A stretch of DNA of 16,061 bases from an archaeon. GTDB lineage: Archaea > B1Sed10-29 > WALL01. How positions within the stretch are numbered: the stretch's first letter is position 1; every line of letters starts with the position of its first letter. The position numbers and the translations under genes were made by a program. The stretch is from contig JBHOSQ010000017.1 of NCBI GenBank assembly GCA_042584585.1, forward strand, positions 1 to 16,061. Direction: 5' to 3'. Of the stretch, positions 1 through 15,900 are shown one piece after another. Under the pieces are notes generated by a model, which saw only the letters and a list, made by a program, of their open reading frames with translations, ran no database searches and was not told the origin of the DNA.

Positions 1-648
1 GGGACGAGGCTGCTTTACGAGTACCCGAGGCCGGACAGGATAACAGGCGCACAAGAGGAATGGATAAAAGGGTACATGGAAGAGTTTGAGGAAGCGGTCG
101 TGCAGGGAAGGCATGAAGAGTACATTGACGTGGACTCGTTCGTGGACTACTACTTGATAAACGAGCTCTTCAAGGATCTTGACGCGTTCAGGTCCAGCAC
201 TTACATAACCAAGGACCGGGGCGGAAAGCTTGTGATGGGGCCAATCTGGGATTATGACACGGCAATGGGGAACAGGGTGCATTATGGCGTGTGGAACACG
301 AGTGGCTGGGTGCTCGGGTCGTTCCAGCCGCGCACGTCACCGGTCCCGTTTTGGTGGAAGATGCTGCTCAAGGACCCAGGCTTCGCGAACAAAACAATCG
401 AGCGGTGGAAAGAATTGCGGCGGGGCCCTCTTTCGGCGGAGAACATTAACGCAGAAATAGATGGAGCCGCGCTGTTACTGGACGAGGCGCAGGAGCGGAA
501 CTTCGAGAGGTGGCTAGTCCTTGGGGAGTACGTGTGGCCGAACCCAGAGCCGTACCCCGAGACATACGAGGGCGAGGTCGAAGCCTTGAGGGCGTGGCTT
601 GTGGCAAGGGCAGAGTGGATTGACGGGAACATTGAGTCGCTTGCATAG
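1..648 (+). CDS. CotH kinase family protein, C-terminal part (5' end outside window)
   Basis: Frame is open from base 1 (GTRLLYEYPRPDRITGAQEEWIKGYM...), so the Met at 76 is internal. CotH-type motifs: YIDVDSFVDYYLINELFKDLD, TYITK, MGPIWDYDTAMGN, WWKMLLKDPGF..RWKELR and LRAWLVARAEWID. Confidence 0.88.
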   Translation, partial: GTRLLYEYPRPDRITGAQEEWIKGYMEEFEEAVVQGRHEEYIDVDSFVDYYLINELFKDLDAFRSSTYITKDRGGKLVMGPIWDYDTAMGNRVHYGVWNTSGWVLGSFQPRTSPVPFWWKMLLKDPGFANKTIERWKELRRGPLSAENINAEIDGAALLLDEAQERNFERWLVLGEYVWPNPEPYPETYEGEVEALRAWLVARAEWIDGNIESLA

Positions 649-662
649 GGCTAAGCCCTTTT
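647..662 (+). terminator. Possible short hairpin plus T-run after the CotH stop
   Basis: AGGGC-TAA-GCCCT (647-659) followed by TTT, directly at the stop codon. Short and weak. Confidence 0.3.
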
Positions 663-674
663 GCGGGGGACCGA

Positions 675-688
675 TTAAGCTTAAATAA
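675..688 (+). promoter_or_regulatory. Archaeal TATA box for the DUF4956 gene
   Basis: TTAAATAA at 681-688, 21 nt before ATG 710. It overlaps a 10-bp palindrome TTAAGCTTAA (675-684). Confidence 0.6.
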
Positions 689-709
689 GCCCAGTGCGTT
701 TCCTTAGAG

Positions 710-1378
710 ATGGACGTAGCGGCTTTGGAACAATTTGTAATGGGGTGGGGCCCAAGCATTGACGTGGGCTCGCTGGCCGCTGCACTTGTATTGGCCGCGG
801 CACTTTCGTATGTTCTTGGCGTGGTCTACATCAAGTACGGGACGAGCCTGTCCAACAGACGGAAGTTTGCGAACAACTTCGTGCTTCTCGCGACCACGAC
901 GACGCTGATAATCACTGTGGTGCGGTCGTCACTTGCCCTGTCGCTGGGGCTTGTGGGCGCCCTGTCAATTGTGAGGTTCCGCGCCGCGATAAAAGAGCCG
1001 GAGGAACTCGGGTTCCTGTTCTTCACCATCGCGATTGGCCTGGGGCTTGGCGCGAGCCAGTTCGTGATAACCATTGTCTCGTTCGTGATAATAAGCACCT
1101 TGATTGTAGTGAAGTCGTTCATGGGCACGGAAAAGGGCTACCAGAACCTGTGCCTCACGGTCTCGGCCGAGGGCAGCAAGGCGAGCCTGAAGGCCATAAC
1201 CAGTGTCCTGTCGCGGCATTGCCCGTCGGTCAGCCTCAGGCGGTTCGACTCGGCCAAGGGAGTTGCCGAAGCGTCTTTCTTTGTGTCACTGCCCTCTCCC
1301 GACAAGCTAGACAAGATAAAGACTGATTTGGAGAAGCTGTCGAAGTCTGTCCGGGTCACCTACGTCGAGGCGGACTGA
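710..1378 (+). CDS. DUF4956 domain-containing membrane protein (MgtC/SapB-like TM region plus soluble C-terminal domain)
   Basis: Signature SSLALSLGLVGALSIVRFRAAIKEPEELGFLFFTIAIGLGLG, several hydrophobic helices, typical ~220 aa length, and CotH/VTC neighbours. Confidence 0.9.
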   Translation: MDVAALEQFVMGWGPSIDVGSLAAALVLAAALSYVLGVVYIKYGTSLSNRRKFANNFVLLATTTTLIITVVRSSLALSLGLVGALSIVRFRAAIKEPEELGFLFFTIAIGLGLGASQFVITIVSFVIISTLIVVKSFMGTEKGYQNLCLTVSAEGSKASLKAITSVLSRHCPSVSLRRFDSAKGVAEASFFVSLPSPDKLDKIKTDLEKLSKSVRVTYVEAD

Positions 1379-2076
1379 ATCCCGAGGGCTTCTACGCCGG
1401 ACACGTACTTCGAGCTTTTGGTGAGCCTGAAGGGGAAATGGTTTGTTATGGCGCCCGCCCCATCGTCAGCGCTTTGGCCGTATTTCAATTCCACGACTAC
1501 GCCTGCGGCGGGCTTGTGCCCAAGGAACAGGTTGTCGCGCTGGAGAATTCTGTAGTAGTCCATGCCCCTATCGATGGTAACCCTGTAGTTTTTGTCTGCC
1601 GACAGAAAATACTTGCGGCTGTATGTGTTTAGGAGGACGGGCTTTAGCGGCTTGAGCTCGCTGACGAGCCAATCCGGCAAGCCAGATTTCGTGATAACGT
1701 TGTCCATGAGCGCCTGGAAAACGAACTTACGGTCGAGTGTGAATGGCTTGAGGGGGTAAGCAATTTTTGCCCTTAGGCCACTGTCTTTTATTTTGAGCTC
1801 AAGCGACGGGCCGGCGGCGCGGCCGAACAAATCCCCATACCACCTAATGCGGGCCTTGGCTCTTTGTGGGCTGCCCCTAACATTGTCGTGGTAGCTCTCC
1901 AGCCGGGGTGAATCAAGGTATATGTTGTTCACGGTCCGCTCGCCGTATATCTCGGTGAACACGCCGGGGTTTGACTTGACTATTGCCTCGGCGGCATGGC
2001 TGTCCAGTTCCGGGACAAAGAACTTCCGTTCATGCGTGAACTCACTGTTTTTGTAGCAGTCCTGCGGGCACAGCAT
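1360..2076 (-). CDS. VTC / polyphosphate polymerase domain protein (triphosphate tunnel metalloenzyme, CYTH-like fold)
   Basis: N-terminal ExK motif (HERKF), NIYLDSP.L, RAKARIRWYG, LELKIK, YSRKYF, RVTIDR, VVELKY and KSSKY. Confidence 0.9.
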   Translation of the reverse strand: MLCPQDCYKNSEFTHERKFFVPELDSHAAEAIVKSNPGVFTEIYGERTVNNIYLDSPRLESYHDNVRGSPQRAKARIRWYGDLFGRAAGPSLELKIKDSGLRAKIAYPLKPFTLDRKFVFQALMDNVITKSGLPDWLVSELKPLKPVLLNTYSRKYFLSADKNYRVTIDRGMDYYRILQRDNLFLGHKPAAGVVVELKYGQSADDGAGAITNHFPFRLTKSSKYVSGVEALGIQSAST

Positions 2077-2600: not shown

Positions 2601-3200
2601 ATGCCAACTTTCTACTTTGACATTGAAACAACCGGCGTGAAGCCGGACCGCGACAAAATAATCACGATTCAATACCAGGAAGTCGACCGCAACACCGCGA
2701 AGCCCATCGGGCCGCTGGTGATACACAAAGAGTGGGACTCCAGCGAGCACGAAATGCTCCAGGACTTCGTGGGCTCCACGAGGATTACTGACCCGTACCC
2801 GTTTTCGTTCGTGCCCATCGGGTACAACCTCAAGTTCGAGAACGACTTTTTGCGGGAACGGTTGGCGGCGTACGGGTTGCCGCGGCCGGACATACTCGGC
2901 AAACCCAACGTGGACTTGCAGGCCATCGGGGTATTGATGAACAAAGGCGAGTTCGTCGGCTCGGGATTGGACAAGATAACGAACAAGCCGTTCAGCGGGA
3001 AAGGCATTCCGGTGTGGTACAAAGAAAAAGAGTACTGGCGGATTGAAGATTACGTAAAGGCGGAGGCCGAAGCGTTCCTCGAATGGGCGCAGTGGCTGTA
3101 CAAAGAAATGCCCGGGCTAAGAGAAAAGTGGGTCAAAGATGCTTGCGGTGCTCAAACGAATACGCCTTCGCAATCATCCACGGCGCAGCCGCAAGAGTAA
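2601..3200 (+). CDS. RNase H-like / DnaQ-superfamily 3'-5' exonuclease domain protein (YprB/RNase_H_2-like)
   Basis: ExoI FYFDIETTG, DKIITIQ, SEHEMLQDF, ExoII-like IGYNLKFENDFL, VDL, GLDKI and ExoIII-like IEDYVKAE. Confidence 0.8.
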   Translation: MPTFYFDIETTGVKPDRDKIITIQYQEVDRNTAKPIGPLVIHKEWDSSEHEMLQDFVGSTRITDPYPFSFVPIGYNLKFENDFLRERLAAYGLPRPDILGKPNVDLQAIGVLMNKGEFVGSGLDKITNKPFSGKGIPVWYKEKEYWRIEDYVKAEAEAFLEWAQWLYKEMPGLREKWVKDACGAQTNTPSQSSTAQPQE

Positions 3201-4275
3201 TCAAGACCACGATGACGAACGAGGAATACAGCCCCGCGCCGACTTTGCCCGCCAGCATCCCAGCCGTTACAATCGCGAGCGACAGCTCCATCCGCGGAAT
3301 CATCGCTATCCCAACGACGAGGGATTTGCGGGGCGACAGGGCGACCAAGGCCGGGAGGCCGCTTCCCAGTAATTTGCCGAAAAACGCGATTATCAACAAG
3401 GCGATTATAACGGTTCCAACGCCCAAAGCAGCCGCCAAATCCACCTGCATGCCGATATAAAAGAAGAAAATGGGCACAAACACCTCGTAAAACGGCTTCA
3501 GCTCCTGTGCAACGTGCTTCTTGTCGTGAATTTCAGAGAAAAACACGCCCGCAGCGAACGCTCCCACCACAGCAGCGAGCTGCATTTGCATGGAAAGCCA
3601 CGCAAGCAGGAAACACCCCCCCAAGAACAGGGGGAGGAGCGAAGACTCGTGAATACTGCGCTTTATTGACAAGGCCTTGAAGCCCCAAAAGAACGAAAAC
3701 GAAATCGCTGCAAAAACTATTAGGGCCAGGAATGCGAAGGTCTGCAAAGCCATTTGGGTGATTGCCACTGCGGTCGTGGCGGTAGTAATGGCAGCCAGAA
3801 TAACGACGCCCACGATGTCGTCGATGACCGCCGCGGTGGTCACGAGCCGGCCTTCCTCGGACTTAAGGCGGCCCAGGTCGGCCAGCACTCGGGCTGCCAC
3901 GCCTATGGAGGTCGCGGCCATTGCCGCGCCGATGAACGGGGCGCTTTCCGGGGGCAAGAGAAGCATGGCGAGCAGGAACGGCATGATTATCCCGCCGGCT
4001 GCAACCAAAAAAGCTGGGAATCCCATTTTGAAGAGCGAGCGGACGTTGAACTCGAGGCCAATCAAAAAAATCATGGCGAGTATCCCGATTGCGGCAAGGA
4101 CTTCGAGCTGGGAGCTCATGGCGACCCAGCCGAGCGCGAACGGGCCGAGTATGACGCCGGCAAGTATTTCGCCGAGCATCGAGGGCTGGCGCAGCTTGGC
4201 GAACAATTCACCCATAGCCTTGGCAGAAATAAGGACCACACCCAGCTGAATCAGTAAAGGAGCCTCGATGTACAC
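3133..4275 (-). CDS. Cation:proton antiporter, CPA2 (NapA/KefB-like) family, membrane domain only
   Basis: GTG start; QPSMLGEILAGVILGP, FLIGLE, ATSIGVAARVL, TAAVIDDIVG, VGAFAAG, PIFFFYIGM, GKLLG and MIPRMEL motifs; about 12 TM helices; no TrkA-N domain. Confidence 0.93.
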   Translation of the reverse strand: MYIEAPLLIQLGVVLISAKAMGELFAKLRQPSMLGEILAGVILGPFALGWVAMSSQLEVLAAIGILAMIFLIGLEFNVRSLFKMGFPAFLVAAGGIIMPFLLAMLLLPPESAPFIGAAMAATSIGVAARVLADLGRLKSEEGRLVTTAAVIDDIVGVVILAAITTATTAVAITQMALQTFAFLALIVFAAISFSFFWGFKALSIKRSIHESSLLPLFLGGCFLLAWLSMQMQLAAVVGAFAAGVFFSEIHDKKHVAQELKPFYEVFVPIFFFYIGMQVDLAAALGVGTVIIALLIIAFFGKLLGSGLPALVALSPRKSLVVGIAMIPRMELSLAIVTAGMLAGKVGAGLYSSFVIVVLITLAAAPWMIAKAYSFEHRKHL

Positions 4276-4334: not shown

Positions 4335-7055
4335 ATGGGCATTGACAAGAGCAGGCTAATGAAATTGTTCCAGAAAGACCCGGACCGCTACTGGAAAGTT
4401 TCTTTGTTCGAGGACGGATGGAACCGCAAAAAATGCCCCAAATGCGGCAAAATGTTTTGGACGCTTGACCCGGACAAGGAACTGTGCGGCGACCCGCCGT
4501 GCGGCGAATACGAATTCCTGGGCAAGCCGCCAACGAAAAAGAAATTGGACTACATCCAGACGTGGAAAACAATCGAAAAGTTCTTTTCCGACGAGGGGCA
4601 CACCCCCATCAAGCGCTACCCCGTGATTTGCAGGTGGTTCCCGGGGCTGTATTTCACTGTGGCGTCGATTGTGGACTTCCAGCGCAGCGCCGGAGGCAAA
4701 ACGGTGTTCGAGCTCCCGACAAACCCGTTAATCGTGCCGCAGGTCTGTTTACGTTTTAACGATATTCCTAACATCGGCGTGTCCGGCAGGCACATGTCGA
4801 GCTTCACCATGGTCGGCCAGCACGCCATCTCCGGAGAGAAGGGCGGGTACTGGAAGGACCGCTGTGTTGATTTGGACCACCGGTTCCTGACCGAGGCACT
4901 GGGCATTCCCGAAGAAAAAGTGGTGTGGACCGAAGACATTTGGGCGGGCCCCAACGCGTTCGGGTCCAGCCTTGAGTACTTTGTCGATGGCTTGGAATTG
5001 GGCAACGCCGTGTTCACCGAATTCGTCGGCACGGTCGACAAATACGAGACCATGGACCAAAAAATCATTGACATGGGCGCGGGACACGAGCGGTTCACCT
5101 GGCTCAGCCAAGGAACGCCCACGGCGTACGACGCGGTGTACGGTCCGGTCATGGAAAAGCTCAGGAAAACAACTGGCGTGAAGTACAACGAGAAAAAGTT
5201 CTTGGAGTACGCGAGGCTCGCCGGGTCAATCAACGCGGACGAGCACGACATCGTAAAATCCAAGGCCGCGGTCGCCAAGACAATGGGCATGGCGCCCAAG
5301 GACTTGGCTGAATTCCTTGCGCCGATGGAAGCGCTTTACGCCATCGCGGACCACGCGAGGACACTCGCATTCGCAATCAGTGACTCCGGGCTCCCGAGCA
5401 ACGTTGGCGGGGGCTATAACCTTCGCGTGATTGCCCGCAGGGCAATGGGGCTAAACGAAAAGTTCGGGTTCGGGCTTGACCTTCCGGAAGTGTGCGCTTG
5501 GCACGCGGATTATTTGAAGCCGTTGTTCCCGGAACTGGCGGAGCACAAAGAACAATACAAAGAGATTCTGGGCGTCGAAAAAACAAAGTACGTGCAGACC
5601 ATGCACCGCGCGAGGCGCACGGTCTCCGGATTGTTGGACTCGAAAAAGCCGATTGGCATGAAAAAGATGCAGGAGCTTTACGAGTCGCACGGCATCACGC
5701 CTGAACTGATTAAAGACATCGCCGAAAAAAGCGGGAACAAGTTCGAGGTGCCGCCCGACTTTTACACCCGGATGACCGAGCAGCACATGAAGCGCGAGGA
5801 AACCGACGCCGAAGTGGTGGACGTGCGCGAATTCCCCGTGACAAAGAAATTGTTTTACGGTCCAAAACTGAAGTTCAAGGCCAAGGTAATCGGCAACAAG
5901 CGCATTGACAACAAGGACTGGGTGGTACTGGACCAAAGCGCGTTTTACGCGGAGAGCGGCGGCCAGGACCACGACACTGGCTACATCAACGGCGAGCGCG
6001 TGAACAACGTGCAAATCGTTGGCGGCGTTGTGCTGCACCAGGTCGACAAGCGCCTGACCGGAGAAGCCAAATGCGAGGTAGACCCCGAGCGCAGGAAGCA
6101 ATTGACCCAGCACCACACCGCGGCGCACCTGGTGAACGGTGCAGCCAGGCGTGTTTTGGGCGAGCACGTGTGGCAGGCAGGCGCACAAAAAGGCGTTTCC
6201 AAGGCTCATTTGGACATCACTCATTACGAGGCCCCTTCGCCGGAGCAGGTGCAGGAAATGGAGGACTTGGCGAACAAGGTAATCGCCGAGGGCCGGACAA
6301 TCCACAAGGCATTGGTCCCCCGCGCCGAGGCGGAAAGGGAGTACGGGTTCCGGCTGTACCAAGGCGGCGCAGTCCCCGAAAAAGAATTGCGGATAATCAG
6401 TATTCCGGAGTGGGACACCGAGGCATGCGGCGGCACGCACGCGGACAACACGGGCGAAGTCGACAAAATCGTGATTACTTCAACAGAAAAAATCCAGGAC
6501 GGGGTCATCCGTGTCTGGTTCCGCGCCGGGAGGGCTGCGGACGCATATTTGTCCGAAATGGACTCGATGCTCGAGGACACCGCACAGTTATTGATGGTCA
6601 ACAAGAAAGACGTGCCCAAAGCGGTGACGAAACTGGTCGCGGGCTGGAAGGCGAAGCGCAAGCGCGTCGAGGAATTGCGCCGCAAGCAGGCCAAGACAAA
6701 AATCAAGGAAATGCAGTTCCGTGCGCTGAAGAAGTACCGCGTCTTGATCAGCAAGGTCGACGACGCGAACATGGACTACTTGCGCGATATCTCGAAACAA
6801 TTGTGCGACGACAGGACATTCCTGTTCTTGATCGGCGTGAAGGACCAGATTTACGTGTTTTCGTTTACGGGAAAAGAGTTCCTCGCGGAGGGCGTGAACT
6901 CGGGCGTAATCGTGAAAGAGCTGTGCAAAAAGCTCGGTGGAGCCGGGGGCGGCCCGCCGCACAAGGGCGAGGGCGTAATCCCATTGTCCCAGAAAGAGGC
7001 CATTGACAGGCTTTTGGAAGACGTCAACAAGCGTGTGGAGGCGAACCTGAAATGA
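4335..7055 (+). CDS. alaS: Alanine--tRNA ligase, archaeal type
   Basis: N-terminal Zn ribbon CPKC..FW..CGDPPC; ASIVDFQ, QVCLRFND, GRH and IDMGAGHER; IADHARTL; LYESHG; FYAESGGQDHDTG; editing motifs QHHTAAH and CGGTH; C-Ala GGAGGG. Confidence 0.98.
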   Translation: MGIDKSRLMKLFQKDPDRYWKVSLFEDGWNRKKCPKCGKMFWTLDPDKELCGDPPCGEYEFLGKPPTKKKLDYIQTWKTIEKFFSDEGHTPIKRYPVICRWFPGLYFTVASIVDFQRSAGGKTVFELPTNPLIVPQVCLRFNDIPNIGVSGRHMSSFTMVGQHAISGEKGGYWKDRCVDLDHRFLTEALGIPEEKVVWTEDIWAGPNAFGSSLEYFVDGLELGNAVFTEFVGTVDKYETMDQKIIDMGAGHERFTWLSQGTPTAYDAVYGPVMEKLRKTTGVKYNEKKFLEYARLAGSINADEHDIVKSKAAVAKTMGMAPKDLAEFLAPMEALYAIADHARTLAFAISDSGLPSNVGGGYNLRVIARRAMGLNEKFGFGLDLPEVCAWHADYLKPLFPELAEHKEQYKEILGVEKTKYVQTMHRARRTVSGLLDSKKPIGMKKMQELYESHGITPELIKDIAEKSGNKFEVPPDFYTRMTEQHMKREETDAEVVDVREFPVTKKLFYGPKLKFKAKVIGNKRIDNKDWVVLDQSAFYAESGGQDHDTGYINGERVNNVQIVGGVVLHQVDKRLTGEAKCEVDPERRKQLTQHHTAAHLVNGAARRVLGEHVWQAGAQKGVSKAHLDITHYEAPSPEQVQEMEDLANKVIAEGRTIHKALVPRAEAEREYGFRLYQGGAVPEKELRIISIPEWDTEACGGTHADNTGEVDKIVITSTEKIQDGVIRVWFRAGRAADAYLSEMDSMLEDTAQLLMVNKKDVPKAVTKLVAGWKAKRKRVEELRRKQAKTKIKEMQFRALKKYRVLISKVDDANMDYLRDISKQLCDDRTFLFLIGVKDQIYVFSFTGKEFLAEGVNSGVIVKELCKKLGGAGGGPPHKGEGVIPLSQKEAIDRLLEDVNKRVEANLK

Positions 7056-7189
7056 ACAGGAAAAGCGAGGCCTTGCTGAAGGAAGCGGCGGAAATACTGG
7101 ACGTTCCTGTGAATGACGTGCCAAAAGTAGTCAAGAATTTGCTTGACGAGTCCAACGAATTGGACGCGCTAATCACTCAACTAGAATAG
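7052..7189 (+). CDS. 45-aa protein homologous to the AlaRS helix-loop-helix dimerisation segment (not in the supplied ORF track)
   Basis: ATG 7052 overlaps the alaS TGA (ATGA); TAG at 7187-7189. Translation: MNRKSEALLKEAAEILDVPVNDVPKVVKNLLDESNELDALITQLE. Ungapped match to AlaS residues 742-782 (11/41 identical, including DVPK). Fills the whole alaS-leuS gap. Confidence 0.8.
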   Translation: MNRKSEALLKEAAEILDVPVNDVPKVVKNLLDESNELDALITQLE

Positions 7190-9923
7190 CCGGCTTGCCG
7201 GGGACAGAGTTCTTTGCTTTCGCTTGCTCGGACTTCGACGCAAGCACCACTTCTATTTTTGTATTGAACTTTTTGGACAAGTAATCCACCGCGCTCTTGA
7301 GTGCCGCTTTTTCTTCTGCCTCGCCCATTGCTTCGCCGAGCTCGTGGAACTTTTTCTGGAGATAGCCCGCGAATGCGGCGCCTTCTTTTGACTTTAATTC
7401 GGGCATCTTCATTAGCTCGGGCATCAGCGTTTTGCGGTCAAGGGCTTTTGCCTTCGCCATTGCCGCGCGCTTCCACTCCGGTGCGACAAACAAAGTTATT
7501 TTCTTGGGCTGGATTTTCGCGAGCTTGATTACTTGGGTGATGTCCTGCTCGACAGTGCGCGCCATTTCTTCGCCGAGCTCTGCCTTCGCGTCGATTTTTG
7601 TTTCGTCCGCGGCCGGGATCTCCTGCGTGGAAACAATTCCTTTGCCGCCAACCATTTCCCAGCACTCTTCCGCGACGAAGGGGGTAAAGGGTGTAAGGCA
7701 CTTGAGCCAATCCATGACCACGGCTTTTGCCGCGGAGCTGTTGCCGCCGCGCTTTTCGTACCACGCGAGCTCGCGCTGGAAATCGAAGAGCATTGTTCCG
7801 ACGGCGGTGCGCAAGTCGTATTTTTCCATTGCCTCTGTGTATTGCTTCAGCCGCGTGTTGAAGCGCGAGACGAGCCACGGGTCCATTGGGGACTTGGCTC
7901 CCTTGAACTCGGTGAACCTGTGCACAAGAGAATAAACGCCTTCTATGTGCGACTTGTACGAAAACGCCGTGTCCTCGTCCCACTCAACGTCGCTGTGTGG
8001 GGAGCCCACGTGCGCGTAGTACAGGCGCAATCCATCGACAGAGAAGCGCTTTGCCGCCTCTTGTGGGGACGCGCTTGCCCCTCCTTTGGACTTGGAGATT
8101 TTCCCACCCTTTCCGATTATCCAGTAATTGACGAAAATGCCTTTGGGCCACTTGTCCGCAGGCAGAATCGCGACGTGGTTCATGATGTAGACAGGGAAGT
8201 GCACTGTCTGGTGCTCTTTCCCGCCGAGGTTGATGTCCACGGGGTACCAGTAGTTGAATTCCTCGCGGATTTTTTTCCACACGGGGTTGCCGTCGCCCTT
8301 GCCGAGGAAAACAAAGTCAAAGAATTCTTCTGTCAAGTCATCGGCCTTTATCTCTCCGGAGTTCACGAAGCGCGACACCACGTAGAACGCTGGATACAAA
8401 GTGGAATCGGAAATGGGCTCGATGGTCCATTTCTCGTCAAACGGAAGCTTGGTGCCGAGCCAGTTGCCGAGCCTTGCACAGGCACGCTCCTGGAACCAGT
8501 CCAGCACACTTTCGATGTTTTCCTTGTACTGGTTGGGCATGATGGCCATGGTCCCGGCGTGGGCCTTGGCCTTTTGTGTTAAGCCCGAGTCGCTGTACTT
8601 GATGAACCACGCGTCCGGAATTAGTTTCACGACGACGTGCCCGCCGCATCGGCACACGACTTCTTCGCTCAAGTCGTACATAATGTCCGCCTTGCCTTCC
8701 GAGACGAGCCATTCCTTTACCTCGTCCTTGGCTTTTTCGACTGGCTTGCCTGCGTACTCGCCGCAGTTTTCGTTCATGACGCCGGTGTGGAAACCGCTTT
8801 TGTAAATCTCTTTTGTCGCGTCCTCTAGCCGCGGGTCGTTCTGGTCCTTGATTTTCATTTGCTCGCAGATTTTGAGTGCGGGCGTGTCGCCCCAGCCCTT
8901 GGACTTGATGATTGGGATTACTCTGATGTCCTTGTATTTCCCCGCTTTCTGCAAATCGTGTAACGCCATCCAGTCGTACGGCGCGTCGCTGGGAACGCTT
9001 GTCACGAGCCCGGTTCCGACGCCAGCGTCGACGAATTTGGACGGGAGGATTGGGACTTCGCGGTCGACGCCCGGTGCCAGTGCTGTTTTGTCGATTAGGT
9101 CCTTGCCCTTTATTTTTCCAACGACTTCGACGCCTTCTTTTTGGAATGACAATTTTTCGGCGCATTGCGGCGAGCAAATCCACGTCTCGTTGCCGACGCG
9201 GGCCTTGACGTATTCCTGGTCGGGGTCTGCCCACAGGTTTGTTTGGCCGAACACTGTTTCGGGCCGCAGTGTGGCGGCGACGATGTAGTCGTCACCGATT
9301 TTGAATTTTAGCAGTGTGTATTCGTGCTTTTCTGCGGTGCCGCCTTTGGAGATGTCGGTCTCGCTTGGGTCTACGGCGACGGGGCCGCAGTGGGGGCAGA
9401 AGGTGGCGTAGTATGGCTGCTGGATTAATAGGTTGTGCTCGTTGAGTTTTCTGAATTGCCATTGGATGAATTTTTGGTATTCAGGGTAAATTGTACAGGT
9501 AAAGGAGTTGAAGTCCGCGAGGAAGCCGAACCGCTTCCAGTTTTTCTGGTAGTTTTTGTTGAAGTAGTCGACGACGTAGTCCACGCTTTCCATTTTCTTT
9601 ATGTCTTTCATGGGAAAGCCGTTTGCTTCGAGGTATTCGAGCCAGTTCGCGTCTTTTTTCTTGACTTTGCTGGCGAACCCGAGCGCTTGGTTGCCGGTTG
9701 CGTGGGTGCCGACGGGGAAGAACACGGAGTGGCCGGTCATTCGCTTGTACCGGCAGATGATGTCTGTGTAGGAAAAGCCGCGCATGTGGCCCACGTGTTG
9801 GTATCCGCTGATGCCGGGGTAGGCGAAGTGCATGAAGAATTTGGGGCCGTTTTGCTTCGCTACTCCAAGGCCTTCCCACTTCTCGGGCCATTTCTTTTCC
9901 GCTGCAGCGTGGTCGTATCGCAT
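7173..9923 (-). CDS. leuS: Leucine--tRNA ligase, archaeal type
   Basis: HIGH motif as HVGH, KMSKS as KISKS, CP1 editing motifs ATLRPETVFG and GTGLVTSVPSDAPYD, CPHC and CRCG Zn sites, IEPISDSTLYPAF, and the archaeal C-terminus PGKPAILVE. Confidence 0.97.
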   Translation of the reverse strand: MRYDHAAAEKKWPEKWEGLGVAKQNGPKFFMHFAYPGISGYQHVGHMRGFSYTDIICRYKRMTGHSVFFPVGTHATGNQALGFASKVKKKDANWLEYLEANGFPMKDIKKMESVDYVVDYFNKNYQKNWKRFGFLADFNSFTCTIYPEYQKFIQWQFRKLNEHNLLIQQPYYATFCPHCGPVAVDPSETDISKGGTAEKHEYTLLKFKIGDDYIVAATLRPETVFGQTNLWADPDQEYVKARVGNETWICSPQCAEKLSFQKEGVEVVGKIKGKDLIDKTALAPGVDREVPILPSKFVDAGVGTGLVTSVPSDAPYDWMALHDLQKAGKYKDIRVIPIIKSKGWGDTPALKICEQMKIKDQNDPRLEDATKEIYKSGFHTGVMNENCGEYAGKPVEKAKDEVKEWLVSEGKADIMYDLSEEVVCRCGGHVVVKLIPDAWFIKYSDSGLTQKAKAHAGTMAIMPNQYKENIESVLDWFQERACARLGNWLGTKLPFDEKWTIEPISDSTLYPAFYVVSRFVNSGEIKADDLTEEFFDFVFLGKGDGNPVWKKIREEFNYWYPVDINLGGKEHQTVHFPVYIMNHVAILPADKWPKGIFVNYWIIGKGGKISKSKGGASASPQEAAKRFSVDGLRLYYAHVGSPHSDVEWDEDTAFSYKSHIEGVYSLVHRFTEFKGAKSPMDPWLVSRFNTRLKQYTEAMEKYDLRTAVGTMLFDFQRELAWYEKRGGNSSAAKAVVMDWLKCLTPFTPFVAEECWEMVGGKGIVSTQEIPAADETKIDAKAELGEEMARTVEQDITQVIKLAKIQPKKITLFVAPEWKRAAMAKAKALDRKTLMPELMKMPELKSKEGAAFAGYLQKKFHELGEAMGEAEEKAALKSAVDYLSKKFNTKIEVVLASKSEQAKAKNSVPGKPAILVE

Positions 9924-9957: not shown

Positions 9958-12900
9958 TTATTTCTTGGCTTTTTTCTTCTTAACCGTTCTAGACTTGGCG
10001 ACCTTCTTTTTGATGGGCTTGGCGGCTTTCTTTTTCGTTGGCTTAGCGACTTTCTTTTTGCGGGGCGTTTCCCCTTTTTGTTGCTGCATTTCTTGAGCCA
10101 GCTGTCTTTTTTGTTCCTCTAGCTTCTTGGGGTCTATATTACCAAAGAGCGGCTTCGGCTTCTTCTTGCCCCGGGTTTTCTTCCCGCCGCCTCCTATCAG
10201 TGCATCAAGCCCTTTCCCTTTCGTCGGCGTCTCGGGCTTTTTCTTGGGCTCTCCTTCGATTACTTCGAGAACCCTTGCCTGGAGCGGCTCTTCTTCGGCG
10301 GACTCTTCTTTGTCATAGAGCCTAACAAATTCGTCGGCGCGCCTTCTGTCGCGCCCGGTGAGGATTCCCTCGTAAAGCATTTCTTTGAAGTTTTGTATGA
10401 ACCCGGATTTGCCCTCCGCGTCTTCTGCGGCGTTCATCAGCTCCGGGAAGTGCGACTCTGCGAGCTCAGAGAGGTCAAAAGTCCTCTGGGTAGTATCCGG
10501 AGTCATGTCAGTGAGGTTCCAGCCCTTCAGTGCCAGCGCGAGGACAGCGGCGTCGCGCTGATGGCTTTGAACATTCCCATCCCGCACCCTCTCGAAAACA
10601 AGTCCTTCTAGGCTGGGGTCTTCATTGGGCTCTGCCCTGTTCAGCTTGTTGATTGCCTTGCTAGTCGTGATGCGTTCATCTCCTCCGGCCCCGGTGGATG
10701 CCTTTTCCCCGGTTTCCTCCTGCACCACCGTCGCTTCCTCGATTTCCATCTCGGCCTCGAGCTCCGCCTTCTTTTGCATCATCAGGCCCTGTGTCAGCGT
10801 GGGGAGCCTGGTCGCTTCAAGCTCTGCCTGCTGTTCGGCAGCCTCCCGCGTGTATTTTTGTTTTGCCATAAGGTCGTCCACCCTCCATCCAGCATACTCC
10901 TGGGCAGTCATCCCCTTGTACCTCAGCAATTCCTCGACCTTTTCAAGCGTCACGCCTTCCAGGCCCGGGGGGATTTGCTCATGGGCGCCATCCATAATTT
11001 CCTCAAGCGGGGGGCTGACGCGCTCAACCACTTCGGGATCATAAACCTCTTCTTCCTGCTCGCGCTGCTTCATCCGCTCTTGTCTCGCAAGGAATTGCTT
11101 GATCATTTCCTGCTCGTCTTTTATCTGCCTGGGCCTGACGTGCATATCGGACACCCCTGGCTCGGAGTGCCTTTCGCTTGTGTATTGCTGCAGGGTCATC
11201 CCCCCACGTTCTTTCAGCTTCTGCATGACGGCTGGGTCTGTTCCAGCGCGCTCGAATAATCCGTAGGTGTATTCCTCGGCCTTGTGGTAGTCCTTCTCGC
11301 CGAGGTACGCGCTCACGGTCTTGAAAGCATCGTTGAGGAGCGACCCCTCTTCAGCCGCAGGCGCGCCCTTCGCTACTAGGCGGGCGTACTGCAGGTCGTA
11401 CTCGTCGTCGGAAAGGCCTTCCACGAAGTCGGTGTTGCCAAGGTCGAATATATCATCGCGCGTGAAATTGATTTCACCGAGCCGGATGATTAGTTTCTCT
11501 AGCTTGTCTTTGTCTATTTCTTCGCGTGGCTTCGCCATTTCTTCCTCGTACGCCAACTTCACTTGCTCCAGGTTCATCGTGGGGTAGTCGGGCTCATCAA
11601 ACTTGGTGGCACGCAAGCCGCCCGGCCGCGCTTCGCGCTCCTCAATCTCTTGTTTGACTGTGTCCCGAATGCCCTCGAGTGAATGAAACTGCTCCTCCAA
11701 ACGCGCGTGATAGTCCTCGTCTTCCAGGTCAATCGATTCGTCTTTCCTGACGAACGGAAAACTCATGACGTTCTGCCCGATAACTTCGTCAAGCTTGGCC
11801 ACGTAGCCCTTCAGCTCGTTTATGTCCTCGATATCGCCCAGCTTCTCAGTGTCAATCGCCAGCAGCTCGTCCGTGTACTCGTTCAGCTTTTTTTCTTCTT
11901 CGTCTGACGTTATCTCGGAAGAAATATCCCCCTCGTCACCAAGTTCAAGGTCTTCTTCCCTGTCGCCCCACTCACCCTCGCCTTCTTCGACTGGAGTAGT
12001 GGCTGTTTCCTCGACACGAATGGCTGCGGGGGGCTGCGTTTCTTCCGTTTTGGTCTCGGGCTCGCCGGCCGGCTGTTCTGCCGCTCCGCCTTCCTCAAGC
12101 AGCCTATTCGTCATTTCCATATTCAGCCGCACAAACTCCTCTGAAGGCTTGTAATCCTCCCCCAACTCATCAAAACGCGCCTTCTCCGTGTTCGCGACCG
12201 CTATATACTCGTCCGAAACACCTACTTTGGTTAACTCCTTGGACTGATTGTCAAACTCTTCAGCACTTATCCCAAAGAATCCTTTTCGCAAGTCAATATC
12301 GAAGTACCCAACACGCGCGACTAAACTATGGCTCAAGGCCGGGTCCAAGGTGTACGGCTCTGCCTGCAAATCCTTGGCTTCAATGTCCCCGTCAATGATT
12401 TTCTTGACCACGTCTGGGTGCTCAATCATGAAAGCCGCTTCGGGCTGCACCTCTAGAATCGCTCCCCTCGAAGCGGGCGAAGGCGCTTCCTCCGCTTCTG
12501 CCTCAAGCCCCGGTTCCTCACCAGCTAGTTTCCTATTAGCTAATCTAAGAACCATATCCGCTTCTAGTCTGGTTAAACCGTATTGGCTCTGCAGGTTTTT
12601 CCCGTAGTCGATTATAGCTGTAGTGTACTTCCCACGCCCCTCTAGGGTATCCTCAAAGTCACTTTCTGAAGGAACCTTGTCGAGTTCATCCGGATGCGTC
12701 GACGAGAATTCCAGGGCTGTCTTAGCCGCATCAATCGACTCTGGGCTAGGTTCCGTTGGTAGTTTGGACTTGTCCCGCTTAAGCCCGTCCATGATAATCG
12801 ATTTCTTAGTGCCTTTTCGCTTAGTTACCCGATCAACACTTCGGTCAATGTCCGCCCCCATCTCATCTATTACTTCGAGTACTCCCCCGCCTTCTGCCTT

Positions 12901-15900
12901 CTCTTCGTCCATCTCGGCCTTGTGTTGTTCGTCGCGCTTGTTATACTCCTTGAGTAGCGCCTTCTGGATTTCGAATTTTTCACCCTCAATCATTTTCCTT
13001 TCGCGAAGGTCAGTGGCTTCTTCGAGCTCTGCCTCTTTCGCCGCAAGGAATTGCTCAAGCTCCTCAGCTTCTGTTGGCAGGACGTCCATTTCTGCCGGGC
13101 GCTCCCGCTCAACGCGCTCAGGCTCGGGAACCTCTTCTTCGGGCAGGGGTATGCCGTGAGCCTCGAAGACCTCGTCAATAATTTTCAGGCTGTTCGGGTA
13201 CTCTGGGTTTTCCGGAAACTGTGTGATAAGGCTAAGGGTCGACTCCCTTTCTAACTTGAGCACTTTCACATCCGTGTCCACCACCCTTTCGAGGTAGTTG
13301 CGGTACTGCTTTTGCTTATGCATTTCCTCAAGGTTCTTGATTCCGGTTGACATCAGTTCTTCAGCGCCGGGAATGCCCAATACCTCAGCTGCCCGGACTA
13401 GCCCCTCTTGGTTTCGTGTGATTTGCTCGATGACGCTTGCAAGCCGCTCAACGGGAACAGTCCCTAGCTTTTCGGGGGTCATGGAAAACCACGGCAAGAC
13501 TTTGGCTATGCCCTTGACCGCCTTCACTTCTTTTTTCTCTTGCGCGTCAGCAAAGTCGGTCTTGCCTTCGTAGTGGTCAGCAATTTCTTTGAGCTCCGCA
13601 ATCCGCTCCTTTTCATCGGCCGCGATTGCGTTCTGGATTTTTTTGGTGCGCCACTCCACGCTCCCAGGCTCATCATGGACAACGGCTTCGTCTCCAACCA
13701 TTCCCTCGAGCTCGCTGATTCTAGCGTCAAGCAATTCCTCGACGTTGGGAATGCCGGTCAATTTGCCGGTGTGGATGATTGCCCTGCGATTATCCTGCAA
13801 GCTCTTCAAGTATTCTTCCTGCATGTCTTCAGGGTGTTCCACGCCCTCGTAAAACGACTCGAGGGTGGGATACTCCACCAAAGCACGGGCAGTGTGATAC
13901 ACGCCTGTGATTTTGTCTATGGTGTTGTGCGTAAACGTAGAAAGTGAGTTAAACTCTGCTTGGTCGGACTCAAGCTGCTCCAGAACTTGGGGCGCCAGAG
14001 CCGCACGCGTCCGGTCTGTGTCTAGCATTAGGTCGGCATGTGAGCGCTTCTGCTCAAGCGCAAGAATGTCCACCAACGCTTCTTTTTGCTTTTTTGGGTC
14101 TCGCCCCCCCGCTAAGGCCAGACCCCTCTCGGCAACCCACTCGTCGTCAACCTCAGCCAAGTCAATGTCTTTTGCGAGAACACTGGCGCGAAGCGGGTCA
14201 GCCACTGGCGTCTCTGTTTTTCCCCCCTCTTCGTGTTTCTTAAGAGCGTCCTCGATTAAGGTTTTTAGGCTTGAGCGTTTTTTCGCGACGACCTTTAGTT
14301 CGTGCGACCCACAAACCTCGCACTCCTCTTCTTTCTCCACGATTTCCGTTCCAGCGGCTGCTTCTTCTAAGTATTCGCCGCAGTTGACGCACTCAGTCCT
14401 CACGAATTCCAGTTGGCGCGAGTCGTTGATTTCTTCTTTCAGCTGCTTGCGCATTAACGCGCTGTTCACAAGGATAGGCGTTTCTTCGTGAAGCTCTTTG
14501 GCCAAGGCGGTTGAGATGCCATGGTCTATTGCGGTTTGGTTTTCTTCAGAAAGCGCCGGTTCCCCGGCTTCCGCAGCAGGCGGTTCAACTGACGCGAGTC
14601 TTTTTTCTGTTTCAAGCAGCTCAGTCTTCGCCCTCAATTCTCGCCCAAACGCATCCATCCCTTGTGTCTGCAGCACTTCAATAAGGGGGTCCACGTCTTC
14701 AGGATTCAGTTCACCGTCGCTCGCCATCTCCAGAAGGATTGTCGTGTTTACATGGAGGTCCTGGAATGCTCTGGCGCCCTTCTCCTCGAATTCTTTCATC
14801 AGCATCCCGACATCCTTGGGCCGCAACTTATTCTCGTCCAAGTCCATTTTAATCGTGCGCCTTGCCGAATACAAGTCTTTGAACGCTATTTCCCCGTTTT
14901 CACTGAATTCTTCCAACAACAATTCGGCGTCCTCGGGTGCCAGCTCACCGTTAGCAACGGTCTCGTCCACCCATTCACGTGCCTTCTCCTCAGTAAATGG
15001 CTCGTCAACCAACGCGTCCTCCGACGGGAGCGACACCGGCTCTTTAATCAACACATCCGGCTTCGGGAAAACAGGGGGTTCTTCCCAGAAGTCCGAGTCC
15101 TCTGAGGGAAGCACTTCACCAACGTCTTCGTCTTTTTTCTCGGGCGTACCCGCGTTGTCACGGATTTTTTGGATTGTTTCCTGTGCCCGCCTCACGTACT
15201 CCTCGGGAATAGTCTCGCCTTCGCGCGTGGCAATTGCCTGCACGTCGACAACGTATTTCTCAAACTTGTCTGCAAACTCGATTGGGTTCTCCAGCCTCTT
15301 GGCGCCAGAAAGAAATTTGAGGGCCTTGTTCTCGTCAAAAGTCTCGAGTATGTCTGTTTCATAGACCTCAGGATTCTTGAAGTGCCAAACCCAGTTGCCC
15401 ATTACGGTAAGGGGTTCATTCCGATCCAACTGCATGGAGTTAATCCCACGAACTTTTTCGAACAAGTCTTTTACTTTTGGGTATTGTTCAAGAACTTCCT
15501 TCTTCTTTTTGTCTTCATCGACAGTCGGCTCCTTGAGGTCTCCAGCATAAGTAAACAAGAGGCCAACCGCTGGCGCCATCTCTAACTCCTCCAGCGACAG
15601 CTTATCAGCAGAAAGCACTTTGTCCACCAGCGCGTCAAACGCCCCAGTAAACTCCTCCAAGTCCACCTCGGCTTTTTGCTTTAGGTCAGGCCTGTTGAAC
15701 AATTCCGCGGCATCCACCACGTCAAGGAAAACCCGGAAACCCTCATTTTTCTTCGCCTGCGAATCAAAACTCTCTAATATCTCACTGAACGGGCGCACGA
15801 CATACTTCACGCTCTCCAGCTTGTCCTGAACCGACTTTTCCATGCTAGTTAATGCTTGGGAGTTATCTAGACTCCACTTGTTCTCAGTGGCTACTATGCT

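What the first reader, a model, noticed from the sequence alone, without database searches (positions are those of the whole stretch)
6558..7189. Unannotated 45-aa stand-alone copy of the AlaRS dimerisation helix, coupled to alaS and charge-complementary to it: candidate heterodimeric AlaRS mini-subunit
Seen: an ORF at 7052-7189 starts in the alaS stop (ATGA overlap, implying translational coupling). It aligns without gaps to AlaS residues 742-782 (nt 6558-6680): SEALLKEAAEILDVPVNDVPKVVKNLLDESNELDALITQLE vs MDSMLEDTAQLLMVNKKDVPKAVTKLVAGWKAKRKRVEELR, 11/41 identical with the hydrophobic pattern kept. The distal helix of the small protein has 5 acidic and 0 basic residues (LLDESNELDALITQLE); AlaS has 6 basic and 2 acidic (LVAGWKAKRKRVEELR). 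Established: in archaeal AlaRS (Archaeoglobus fulgidus structure) this segment between the editing domain and the C-Ala globule forms the helix-loop-helix zipper that homodimerises the enzyme. Inference: a basic zipper would self-repel, and the acidic mini-protein could replace the second subunit. That would give an AlaRS with one catalytic chain plus a 5-kDa partner, or a regulator of oligomeric state. I do not recall such a subunit being described.
Basis: partly seen in the sequence, partly recalled or inferred. Interest (0 to 1): 0.9.

Follow-up and report, generated by a model that had tools for sequence, protein, structure and literature searches.

The report
Mini-protein copy of AlaRS zipper
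A conserved 45-residue gene that overlaps the stop codon of the alanyl-tRNA synthetase gene encodes a free-standing copy of that enzyme's own dimerisation hairpin and probably binds it as a small extra subunit, something not described for this enzyme in the papers I could search.

Summary
ORF 7052-7189 (45 aa) starts in the alaS stop (ATGA). Its gap-free alignment to AlaS 742-782 is the best of all diagonals, and 0 of 2000 shuffles reach its score.

It is a real gene:
- A small frame follows alaS in 13 of 13 genomes of the order.
- dN/dS is 0.115 against a congener.
- A Shine-Dalgarno-like motif lies 5-11 nt upstream in 12 of 13.

A profile of the orthologues finds the A. fulgidus AlaRS dimerisation domain first in the PDB (E 2.5e-6).

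The module recurs with AlaRS in other small archaeal genomes. It follows an alaS that lacks the globular C-Ala, or a full alaS. In Woesearchaeota-labelled genomes it is fused to the AlaRS C-terminus.

A complex model puts the mini-protein on AlaS 739-785 (ipSAE 0.77, best control 0.02). That pass may echo the solved homodimer.

Charge complementarity holds only in this genus. Whether the protein replaces the second subunit is open.

Verdict: a likely AlaRS accessory subunit, a new variant of a known module.

The parts
4335..7055 (+). alaS, archaeal-type alanyl-tRNA synthetase, 906 aa, with the full domain set including the globular C-Ala
   Evidence: Pfam PF01411, PF07973 and PF02272. TIGR03683 E 3.9e-259, model positions 6-898 of 902.
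6549..6689 (+). AlaS residues 739-785: helix-loop-helix zipper (HLH1) of the C-Ala helical subdomain. It is the paralogous segment and the predicted docking surface for the mini-protein.
   Evidence: Aligns to the A. fulgidus dimerisation domain 2ZVF. The A1 profile hits 6564-6638 at E 4.3e-4. Interface residues 8-54 of the 175-aa tail correspond to AlaS 739-785.
7037..7041 (+). GGAGG, a Shine-Dalgarno-like motif inside the alaS 3' end, 10 nt upstream of the small ORF start
   Evidence: A like motif (GGAGG, GGAG or GGTG, 5-11 nt upstream) is present in 12 of 13 genomes of the order, in codons for different amino acids.
7052..7189 (+). Small gene, 45 aa: free-standing helix-loop-helix paralogue of HLH1. 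Its ATG overlaps the alaS TGA (ATGA).
7173..9923 (-). leuS (archaeal leucyl-tRNA synthetase, 916 aa), convergent; its last 17 nt overlap the 3' end of the small gene. Context, not shown to be part of the system.

Best explanation
The 45-codon ORF is a real gene for a two-helix hairpin that is a paralogue of the AlaRS helix-loop-helix dimerisation zipper (C-Ala helical subdomain).

It is translated from the alaS mRNA. A Shine-Dalgarno-like site lies in the last alaS codons and the start overlaps the alaS stop, so the two proteins should be made together. This coupling is inferred.

The mini-protein packs against AlaS residues about 739-785 in a pseudo-twofold, parallel four-helix zipper. It takes the place that the second protomer's hairpin takes in a homodimer, and so acts as a small accessory subunit of AlaRS. 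This step rests on a model and on comparative genomics, not on experiment.

The same module is fused to the AlaRS C-terminus in Woesearchaeota-labelled genomes. It is encoded directly after a C-Ala-less alaS in several other small archaeal genomes. This suggests that HLH1 and HLH2 are partners.

Whether the result is one catalytic chain plus the mini-protein (alpha-beta) or a larger alpha2-beta2 assembly is not resolved.
For: Real gene:
- A small frame matching the profile was found in 13 of 13 genomes of the order (4 families, 10 genera).
- It lies at the alaS stop in all 13: ATGA in 8, GTGA in 1, a 14-nt overlap in 1, an 8-nt overlap in 1, start 4 nt after the stop in 1, CTGA without a canonical start in 1.
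- The downstream gene varies while the ORF stays with alaS: convergent leuS, co-directional leuS, or a Cys-rich membrane-like ORF.
- The reading frame relative to alaS is not constant (offsets). This argues for separate initiation rather than a frameshift fusion.
- dN/dS is 0.115 for G000 against G002 (16.5 synonymous and 10.5 non-synonymous differences); the alaS tail gives 0.14.
- A Shine-Dalgarno-like motif is present in 12 of 13.

Homology to the zipper:
- 0 of 2000 shuffles reach the observed score.
- 2ZVF E 2.5e-6 and 3WQY E 1e-5; the next hit has E 0.027.
- Searches give the same register.
- the broad profile hits the matching region in frames of about 900 aa (AlaRS length) in many archaeal genomes.

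Link to AlaRS beyond this order:
- Small frames sit directly after alaS in G182, G239, G296, G344 and G260 (AlaRS ends after HLH1) and in G163 and G315 (full AlaRS). In G372 the small frame is convergent next to alaS.
- Fused HLH1-linker-HLH2 AlaRS: all 13 proteins returned (12 of 833-841 aa, 1 of 538 aa) carry PF01411 and PF07973 and no DHHA1; sequences.
- HLH2 lies within 6 residues of the C-terminus in 18 of 19 loci, most titled Candidatus Woesearchaeota.
- AlphaFold2 of the fused tail gives four helices, pLDDT 84.1, pTM 0.70.

Binding model:
- ipSAE 0.77, 0.77 and 0.76; best of 3 controls 0.02.
- The mark was reached by 58 of 80 solved complexes and 2 of 110 mismatched pairs. These counts hold only roughly, because my own alignments were used.
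- Partner pLDDT is at least 90; the runs agree in at least 96% of contacts.
- Contacts pair homologous positions (AlaS 764 with small 27, 767 with 30, 774 with 37; 749 with 27 and 764 with 12).
Against:
- The complex pass may come from the model's memory of the solved AlaRS homodimer (2ZVF, 3WQY). The tool itself warns that such a pass shows likeness, not binding.
- Four of the 12 small-frame hits outside the order are not next to alaS (G143, G220, G353, G334).
- The G005 copy has no ATG, GTG or TTG at the conserved start.
- Charge complementarity is not general.
- A 45-aa hairpin could equally form a homodimeric four-helix bundle on its own.
- Genome kin are not independent, so '13 of 13' is one lineage.
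- The fold search of the fused tail found nothing (best E 0.76).
- A search for longer fused relatives of P0002 found none; the tool calls this weak evidence.
Confidence: 0.6

Rival explanations
1. It acts as a regulatory 'microProtein', like the Id proteins. The hairpin binds the AlaRS zipper to block homodimerisation and lower or tune activity, rather than serving as a constitutive structural subunit.
For: The binding evidence is the same as for the main explanation. [quoted passage not shown] The Id-protein logic (a dimerisation domain without the working domain acts as a dominant negative) is stated in the abstract of PMC12560517, which I saw only in a search listing.
Against: An obligatory stop-start overlap with alaS in most genomes gives co-production, not independent control. 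Permanent cis fusion in Woesearchaeota-labelled AlaRS is hard to reconcile with an inhibitor of an essential enzyme.
Confidence: 0.12
2. It is an independent small protein. The hairpin arose by duplication of the alaS zipper but now self-associates (Rop-like four-helix bundle) or binds nucleic acid, with a function unrelated to AlaRS. The adjacency would only record its origin.
For: Four of the 12 small-frame hits outside the order lie away from alaS. One relative, P0057, is fused to a protein that by my own reading resembles a family-4 uracil-DNA glycosylase; I ran no family search on it. The residual about 54-residue C-Ala of C. elegans mitochondrial AlaRS is reported to bind tRNA and DNA (passages of PMC10485164 and PMC8887476).
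Against: The position at the alaS stop is kept across a whole order while the neighbours change. Linkage or fusion to AlaRS recurs in separate lineages. The window's protein has net charge -5, which is poor for nucleic-acid binding. The complex controls with unrelated partners scored 0.00-0.02.
Confidence: 0.18
3. It is an adaptor that links AlaRS to another synthetase (LeuRS) in a multi-synthetase complex.
For: leuS lies next to alaS plus the small ORF in 7 of the 9 order loci I inspected: G000, G001 and G002 convergent; G003, G004, G005 and G010 co-directional.
Against: In G006 and G009 the neighbour is a different gene. No leuS linkage was seen in the loci outside the order that I inspected. 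The homology is to AlaRS only. No LeuRS contact was modelled.
Confidence: 0.05
4. It is a chance or non-functional ORF.
For: It is short, has no Pfam family, and the G005 copy lacks a canonical start.
Against: Conservation at 31-82% amino-acid identity among the nine genome-derived rows of the alignment. dN/dS of 0.115. The Shine-Dalgarno-like motif. 38 of the 74 significant hits in a 1.84-billion-protein library are stand-alone proteins of 37-70 aa.
Confidence: 0.03

Closest known systems
Helical subdomain (helix-loop-helix zipper) of the C-Ala / dimerisation domain of Archaeoglobus fulgidus AlaRS (PDB 2ZVF, 3WQY)
   Same: Sequence homology and register. It is a two-helix hairpin, and the model shows zipper-type packing of homologous positions. 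Its role in dimerisation is stated in review passages.
   Different: Here the hairpin is a separate 45-aa polypeptide with its own start codon. It lacks the long continuation of helix B and the globular subdomain. The partner would be a heterologous chain.
AlaRS of about 835 aa ending in HLH1-linker-HLH2, without the globular C-Ala
   Same: The same module joined to AlaRS. The small-ORF profile scores best on the second copy in 8 of the 9 two-copy fragments.
   Different: Cis fusion, and no globular C-Ala. The window's AlaS keeps the globular C-Ala and encodes the module in trans. By HMM score, 11 of the 13 small proteins of alignment A1 resemble their own order's HLH1 more than the Woesearchaeota HLH2, so the origins may be independent.
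C. elegans mitochondrial AlaRS with a residual C-Ala of about 54 residues (PMC8887476, PMC10485164; passages read)
   Same: It shows that the first two helices of C-Ala can exist without the globular subdomain, as in the archaeal AlaRS forms that end after HLH1.
   Different: It is part of the synthetase chain. No separate hairpin protein is described, and it is reported as a tRNA- and DNA-binding element.
Split alaS of Nanoarchaeum equitans and other split DPANN genes (PMC6349945, passages read)
   Same: A DPANN setting, with AlaRS function spread over two polypeptides. The arrangement 'alaS ending after HLH1 plus small ORF' compared with the fused form looks like a gene split or fusion.
   Different: In the window nothing is split. 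AlaS has the complete domain set and the small gene is an extra copy of one element.
Free-standing AlaRS-domain homologues (AlaXp editing proteins; PMC3158927, passages read)
   Same: The precedent of AlaRS domains encoded as separate genes.
   Different: AlaXp carries the editing domain, with or without C-Ala. The mini-protein has only the hairpin and no catalytic part.
Id proteins / microProteins (concept recalled; one abstract seen in the listing)
   Same: A small protein consisting only of the dimerisation helix-loop-helix of a larger protein. The model gives a parallel four-helix arrangement.
   Different: Those are eukaryotic transcription-factor regulators and are unrelated in sequence. 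Here the target would be an aminoacyl-tRNA synthetase, and the effect (inhibitor or subunit) is unknown.

Membership tests
AlaRS C-Ala helical subdomain (HLH zipper) homologues | Significant sequence or profile similarity to the segment between the editing domain and the globular C-Ala | tested here: met
   (0 of 2000 shuffles). (2ZVF E 2.5e-6, 3WQY E 1e-5). (TIGR03683 positions 743-784). (own AlaS 6564-6638, E 4.3e-4).
AlaRS C-Ala helical subdomain (HLH zipper) homologues | Helix-loop-helix hairpin fold | tested here: inconclusive
   Partner pLDDT is at least 90 in the complex model, but its secondary structure was not printed. The homologous fused tail is predicted as four helices. There is no solved structure.
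AlaRS C-Ala helical subdomain (HLH zipper) homologues | Is part of the synthetase polypeptide | tested here: not met
   It has a separate ORF with its own start and a Shine-Dalgarno-like site. The relative frame varies between genomes. No longer fused relative of P0002 was found; the tool calls this weak evidence.
Accessory subunit of an aminoacyl-tRNA synthetase | Physical binding to the synthetase | tested here: inconclusive
   Model only: ipSAE 0.77 against a best control of 0.02, and a solved like complex exists. Gene linkage and fusions support it. No experiment.
Accessory subunit of an aminoacyl-tRNA synthetase | Changes the activity or oligomeric state of the enzyme | not testable with these tools
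   Needs SEC-MALS or AUC and aminoacylation and editing assays.
Split-gene aaRS subunit (N. equitans AlaRS type) | The two genes together make up one copy of the canonical domain set | tested here: not met
   The window's AlaS alone covers TIGR03683 positions 6-898 of 902 and has DHHA1. The small gene duplicates one element.
microProtein / Id-like dominant negative | A small protein homologous only to the dimerisation domain of a larger protein | tested here: met
microProtein / Id-like dominant negative | Inhibits the target by forming non-productive heterodimers | not testable with these tools
The cis-fused forms argue against inhibition.
AlaX trans-editing proteins | Contains the AlaRS-type editing domain (tRNA_SAD, HxxxH/CxxxH motifs) | tested here: not met
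   45 aa with no Pfam domain. The only NCBIfam hit is to the zipper segment.

The most novel reading that the evidence does not exclude
Several lineages of small-genome (DPANN-type) archaea have moved the partner half of the AlaRS dimerisation zipper into a 5-kDa protein, or into a second hairpin in cis. On this reading AlaRS, described in the reviews I read as needing C-Ala-mediated dimerisation to charge tRNA in prokaryotes, works there as one catalytic chain capped by a pseudo-partner. The trans (this window), split and fused forms would mark stages on a route to loss of the globular C-Ala during genome reduction.
Probability: 0.3. Interest if true: 0.8.

Novelty: new variant of a known kind. 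Interest (0 to 1): 0.66.

Why it matters
AlaRS is repeatedly described as keeping one 'prototype' architecture throughout life (abstracts and passages of PMC8887476 and PMC10036535, and PMC10485164). A conserved, co-translated mini-subunit made from the enzyme's own dimerisation hairpin, with cis-fused and split counterparts, would be a new exception.

It would give a natural experiment on what C-Ala-mediated dimerisation is for. It would also add a prokaryotic, translation-machinery example of a small protein acting through a borrowed dimerisation element.

In practice, it flags a family of 37-70 aa proteins with no Pfam model. The one source name I saw for a member is 'hypothetical protein'.

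My literature searches found no description of such a protein. Subscription journals and supplementary files were not searchable, and the primary structure paper (PMC2689022) is not held.

Tried and rejected
Steps that led nowhere, and ideas I rejected:
- BLASTP of the small protein against AlaS missed the alignment. A gapless scan with shuffles replaced it. My first, slow script timed out.
- Charge complementarity as the general principle: rejected.
- A frameshift or read-through extension of AlaS: rejected, because the relative frame and the overlap length vary.
- Pfam for the small family: no family. Each of 15 coiled-coil-type models hit 1 of 39 members. P0002's only weak hit was DUF4777, E 0.19.
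- ESM Atlas: the nearest clusters were unrelated (LuxS- or DNA-polymerase-III-labelled fragments) and there was no structure.
- Foldseek of the fused-tail model against the PDB: best E 0.76.
I then used the genome search on 401 genomes and spent the genome-contig scan on the fused AlaRS P0086.
- Five other small archaeal genomes by handle: only AlaRS-type or weak hits.
- A search for longer, fused relatives of P0002: none among 96 candidates, which the tool calls weak evidence.
- Origin of the order's mini-protein (local duplication of HLH1, or an older HLH2 family): unresolved. 11 of the 13 small proteins of alignment A1 score higher on the own-order HLH1 profile, but that profile shares lineage composition.
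- The primary paper Naganuma 2009 (PMC2689022) is not held. The role of the zipper is cited from passages of two later papers.
No earlier findings and no expression data were seen.
Full report
**1. What is in the window**

alaS occupies 4335-7055 on the + strand. It encodes 906 aa with the domains tRNA-synt_2c, tRNA_SAD and DHHA1. NCBIfam TIGR03683, the archaeal AlaRS model, matches at E 3.9e-259 over model positions 6-898 of 902.

A 45-codon ORF runs 7052-7189 on the same strand. Its ATG (7052-7054) overlaps the alaS TGA (7053-7055). leuS (7173-9923, minus strand) converges on it and overlaps its last 17 nt.

The genome is about 1.0 Mb and 84% complete. An 82%-identical homologue of the small protein is labelled Candidatus Diapherotrites archaeon, a DPANN lineage.

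**2. Is the similarity to AlaS real?**

BLASTP did not report it. The segment score was 51, against 28.2 +/- 3.8 in shuffles; 0 of 2000 shuffles reached it. The stated 41 columns have 11 identities and score 43.

A profile of 13 orthologues (A1) searched against all PDB sequences found two hits first. One is the A. fulgidus AlaRS dimerisation-domain construct 2ZVF (residues 11-52, E 2.5e-6). The other is full-length 3WQY (residues 746-787, E 1e-5). The next hit had E 0.027.

The AlaS tail itself aligns to 2ZVF residues 2-160 (E 3.8e-9) in the same register. The only NCBIfam hit of the small protein is TIGR03683 positions 743-784 (E 0.006).

Review passages state that this helical subdomain dimerises archaeal AlaRS as a helix-loop-helix zipper, and that dimerisation is needed for charging in archaea and bacteria (PMC8583063 and PMC10485164; passages only). 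The primary paper is not held.

**3. Is it a gene?**

With the single protein as query, 14 of 41 related genomes matched at E <= 10. These included 5 of 5 genomes of the family and 2 of 2 of a second family.

With the profile, all 13 genomes of the order (4 families, 10 genera) had a small open frame of 47-134 aa. Outside the order, 1 of the 18 other genomes of the class matched. That hit (G028) lies in a 202-aa frame at a contig start, which one search shows to be an AlaS fragment.

In all 13 genomes the frame sits at the alaS stop:

| Junction | Genomes |
|---|---|
| ATG overlapping the stop by 4 nt (ATGA) | 8 |
| GTGA | 1 |
| 14-nt overlap | 1 |
| 8-nt overlap | 1 |
| Start 4 nt after the stop | 1 |
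| CTGA, no canonical start until a TTG 14 nt later (G005) | 1 |

- The frame relative to alaS is not constant. This argues against a frameshift extension.
- None of the 15 alaS loci from other orders of the class has a homologous ORF there; two have unrelated short ORFs.
- The downstream gene differs between genomes.
- Amino-acid identity to the window's protein falls to 31-51% among the more distant genome-derived rows. The G000/G002 pair gives dN/dS 0.115 (16.5 synonymous and 10.5 non-synonymous differences), like the alaS tail at 0.14.
- A GGAGG, GGAG or GGTG motif lies 5-11 nt upstream of the start in 12 of 13 genomes, inside codons for different residues. Six of seven other gene starts I checked in the window have no such motif; leuS has only a GTGA.

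**4. A wider family tied to AlaRS**

A full HMMER scan of 1.84 billion representatives gave 74 proteins at E <= 1e-3. Of these, 38 are 37-70 aa.

Nine are archaeal AlaRS C-terminal fragments with two tandem hairpins and no globular C-Ala. They run: end of the editing domain, HLH1 with a very basic W-K-rich helix, a short linker, HLH2, stop. The profile scores best on HLH2 in eight of the nine; in P0040 the second copy is cut short.

Full-length examples are 833-841 aa. All 13 proteins returned (12 of that length and one of 538 aa) carry PF01411 and PF07973 and no DHHA1. P0086 matches TIGR03683 only to position 786 of 902.

A genome-collection scan found 20 loci: 16 titled Candidatus Woesearchaeota, 1 Nanoarchaeota, 2 'archaeon' and 1 Candidatus Sigynarchaeum. 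My HMM scan puts HLH2 within 6 residues of the C-terminus in 18 of the 19 loci L102-L120.

AlphaFold2 of this tail gives four helices, pLDDT 84.1 and pTM 0.70.

A search of 401 archaeal genomes hit 236. Most listed hits lie in frames of about 900 aa, the length of AlaRS; only about 150 of 259 matches were listed. It also found small frames in 12 genomes outside the order (context):

| Context of the small frame | Genomes |
|---|---|
| Directly after an alaS that ends after HLH1 | G182, G239, G296, G344, G260 |
| Overlapping the end of a full alaS with C-Ala, as in the window | G163, G315 |
| Convergent, next to alaS | G372 |
| Elsewhere | G143, G220, G353, G334 |

So the hairpin occurs with AlaRS in trans, split and fused arrangements. 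This is a Rosetta-stone type of argument that HLH1 and the second hairpin work together. Some bacterial AlaRS fragments also carry two hairpin copies before C-Ala.

**5. Binding model**

I submitted the AlaS tail (175 aa, alignment A2 of 26 rows) and the mini-protein (alignment A3 of 39 rows).

- ipSAE was 0.77, 0.77 and 0.76; the best of 3 controls was 0.02.
- The mark was reached by 58 of 80 solved complexes and 2 of 110 mismatched pairs. These counts hold only roughly, because my own alignments were used.
- Partner pLDDT was at least 90, and the runs agree in at least 96% of contacts.
- The interface is tail residues 8-54, that is AlaS 739-785, against the whole mini-protein.
- The lowest-error contacts pair homologous positions: 764 with 27, 767 with 30 and 774 with 37, and crosswise 749 with 27 and 764 with 12. 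My reading is a pseudo-twofold, parallel zipper in which the mini-protein takes the place of a second protomer's hairpin.

The caveat is that a like homodimer is solved, so the pass may reflect likeness rather than binding. I could not run the homodimer or the 2:2 comparison, because only one job was allowed.

**6. The charge argument**

The window's pair is complementary: the small helix B has net charge -3 and the aligned AlaS segment +6. So are its two congeners. Across the 12 order genomes I compared (G009 was not included), the small helix ranges from -3 to +4 and the AlaS segment from -1 to +6. Spearman rho is -0.20, p 0.53, and the genomes are not independent.

Basic AlaS helices also occur in genomes without the ORF. 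In the fused forms both hairpins are lysine-rich. The conserved feature is the hydrophobic pattern: L9, L16, P24, L30 and I41 are invariant or nearly so.

**7. Origin**

Of the 13 small proteins in alignment A1, 11 score higher on a profile of their own order's HLH1 than on the Woesearchaeota HLH2. This fits local duplication. Shared lineage composition could also explain it, so the question is unresolved.

**8. Verdict**

The gene is real, with a probability of about 0.95. That it binds the AlaRS zipper as an accessory subunit is the best-supported mechanism (about 0.6), with the consequence for oligomeric state open.

The charge-repulsion rationale is a genus-level feature, not the general rule.

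I found no description of such a protein in six full-text searches. Subscription journals and supplements were not searchable.

It is a new variant of a known module.

Noticed in passing
window 9958-15984 (-): A 2008-aa ORF (the open frame continues to the window edge) with no Pfam family at E <= 0.001.
   Followed up: partly
window 76-2076: A cluster of a CotH-kinase-like ORF (76-648, +), a DUF4956 ORF (710-1378, +) and a VTC-domain ORF (1360-2076, -). A Na+/H+ exchanger lies at 3133-4275 (-) and an RNase_H-superfamily ORF at 2601-3200 (+).
   Followed up: partly
L008 / L046 (G005), junction of alaS and the small ORF: This orthologue has CTGA where relatives have ATGA, and no ATG, GTG or TTG until 14 nt after the stop. 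Either a non-canonical start is used or the copy is decaying.
   Followed up: partly
loci L001-L004, L007/L015, L008, L010: leuS is the next gene after alaS plus the small ORF in 7 of the 9 order genomes inspected: convergent in 3 and co-directional in 4. In G006 and G009 a Cys-rich membrane-like ORF follows instead.
   Followed up: partly
proteins P0027, P0032, P0033, P0050, P0065: Bacterial-looking AlaRS fragments carry two tandem copies of the same hairpin motif ahead of the globular C-Ala. The duplication of this element in cis is therefore not confined to archaea.
   Followed up: no
protein P0057 (238 aa): A hairpin of this family is fused in frame to a protein that, by my own reading of its motifs, resembles a family-4 uracil-DNA glycosylase. 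I ran no family search on it. It could be a real fusion or a lost stop between neighbouring genes.
   Followed up: no
L094 (G323): An AlaRS in an 814-aa frame ends right after HLH1. No second hairpin was found in that genome (84% complete), so a C-Ala-less AlaRS may exist without the partner.
   Followed up: partly
L065 (G020), directly after alaS: An unrelated 62-aa lysine-rich ORF starts 1 nt after the alaS stop in a genome of another order of the class.
   Followed up: no
G007, G011, G013, G017, G020, G022, G025: Second, weaker matches to the AlaS editing region lie in frames of about 240-257 aa and look like free-standing AlaX-type editing proteins. Two of them contain one in-frame TGA.
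   Followed up: no
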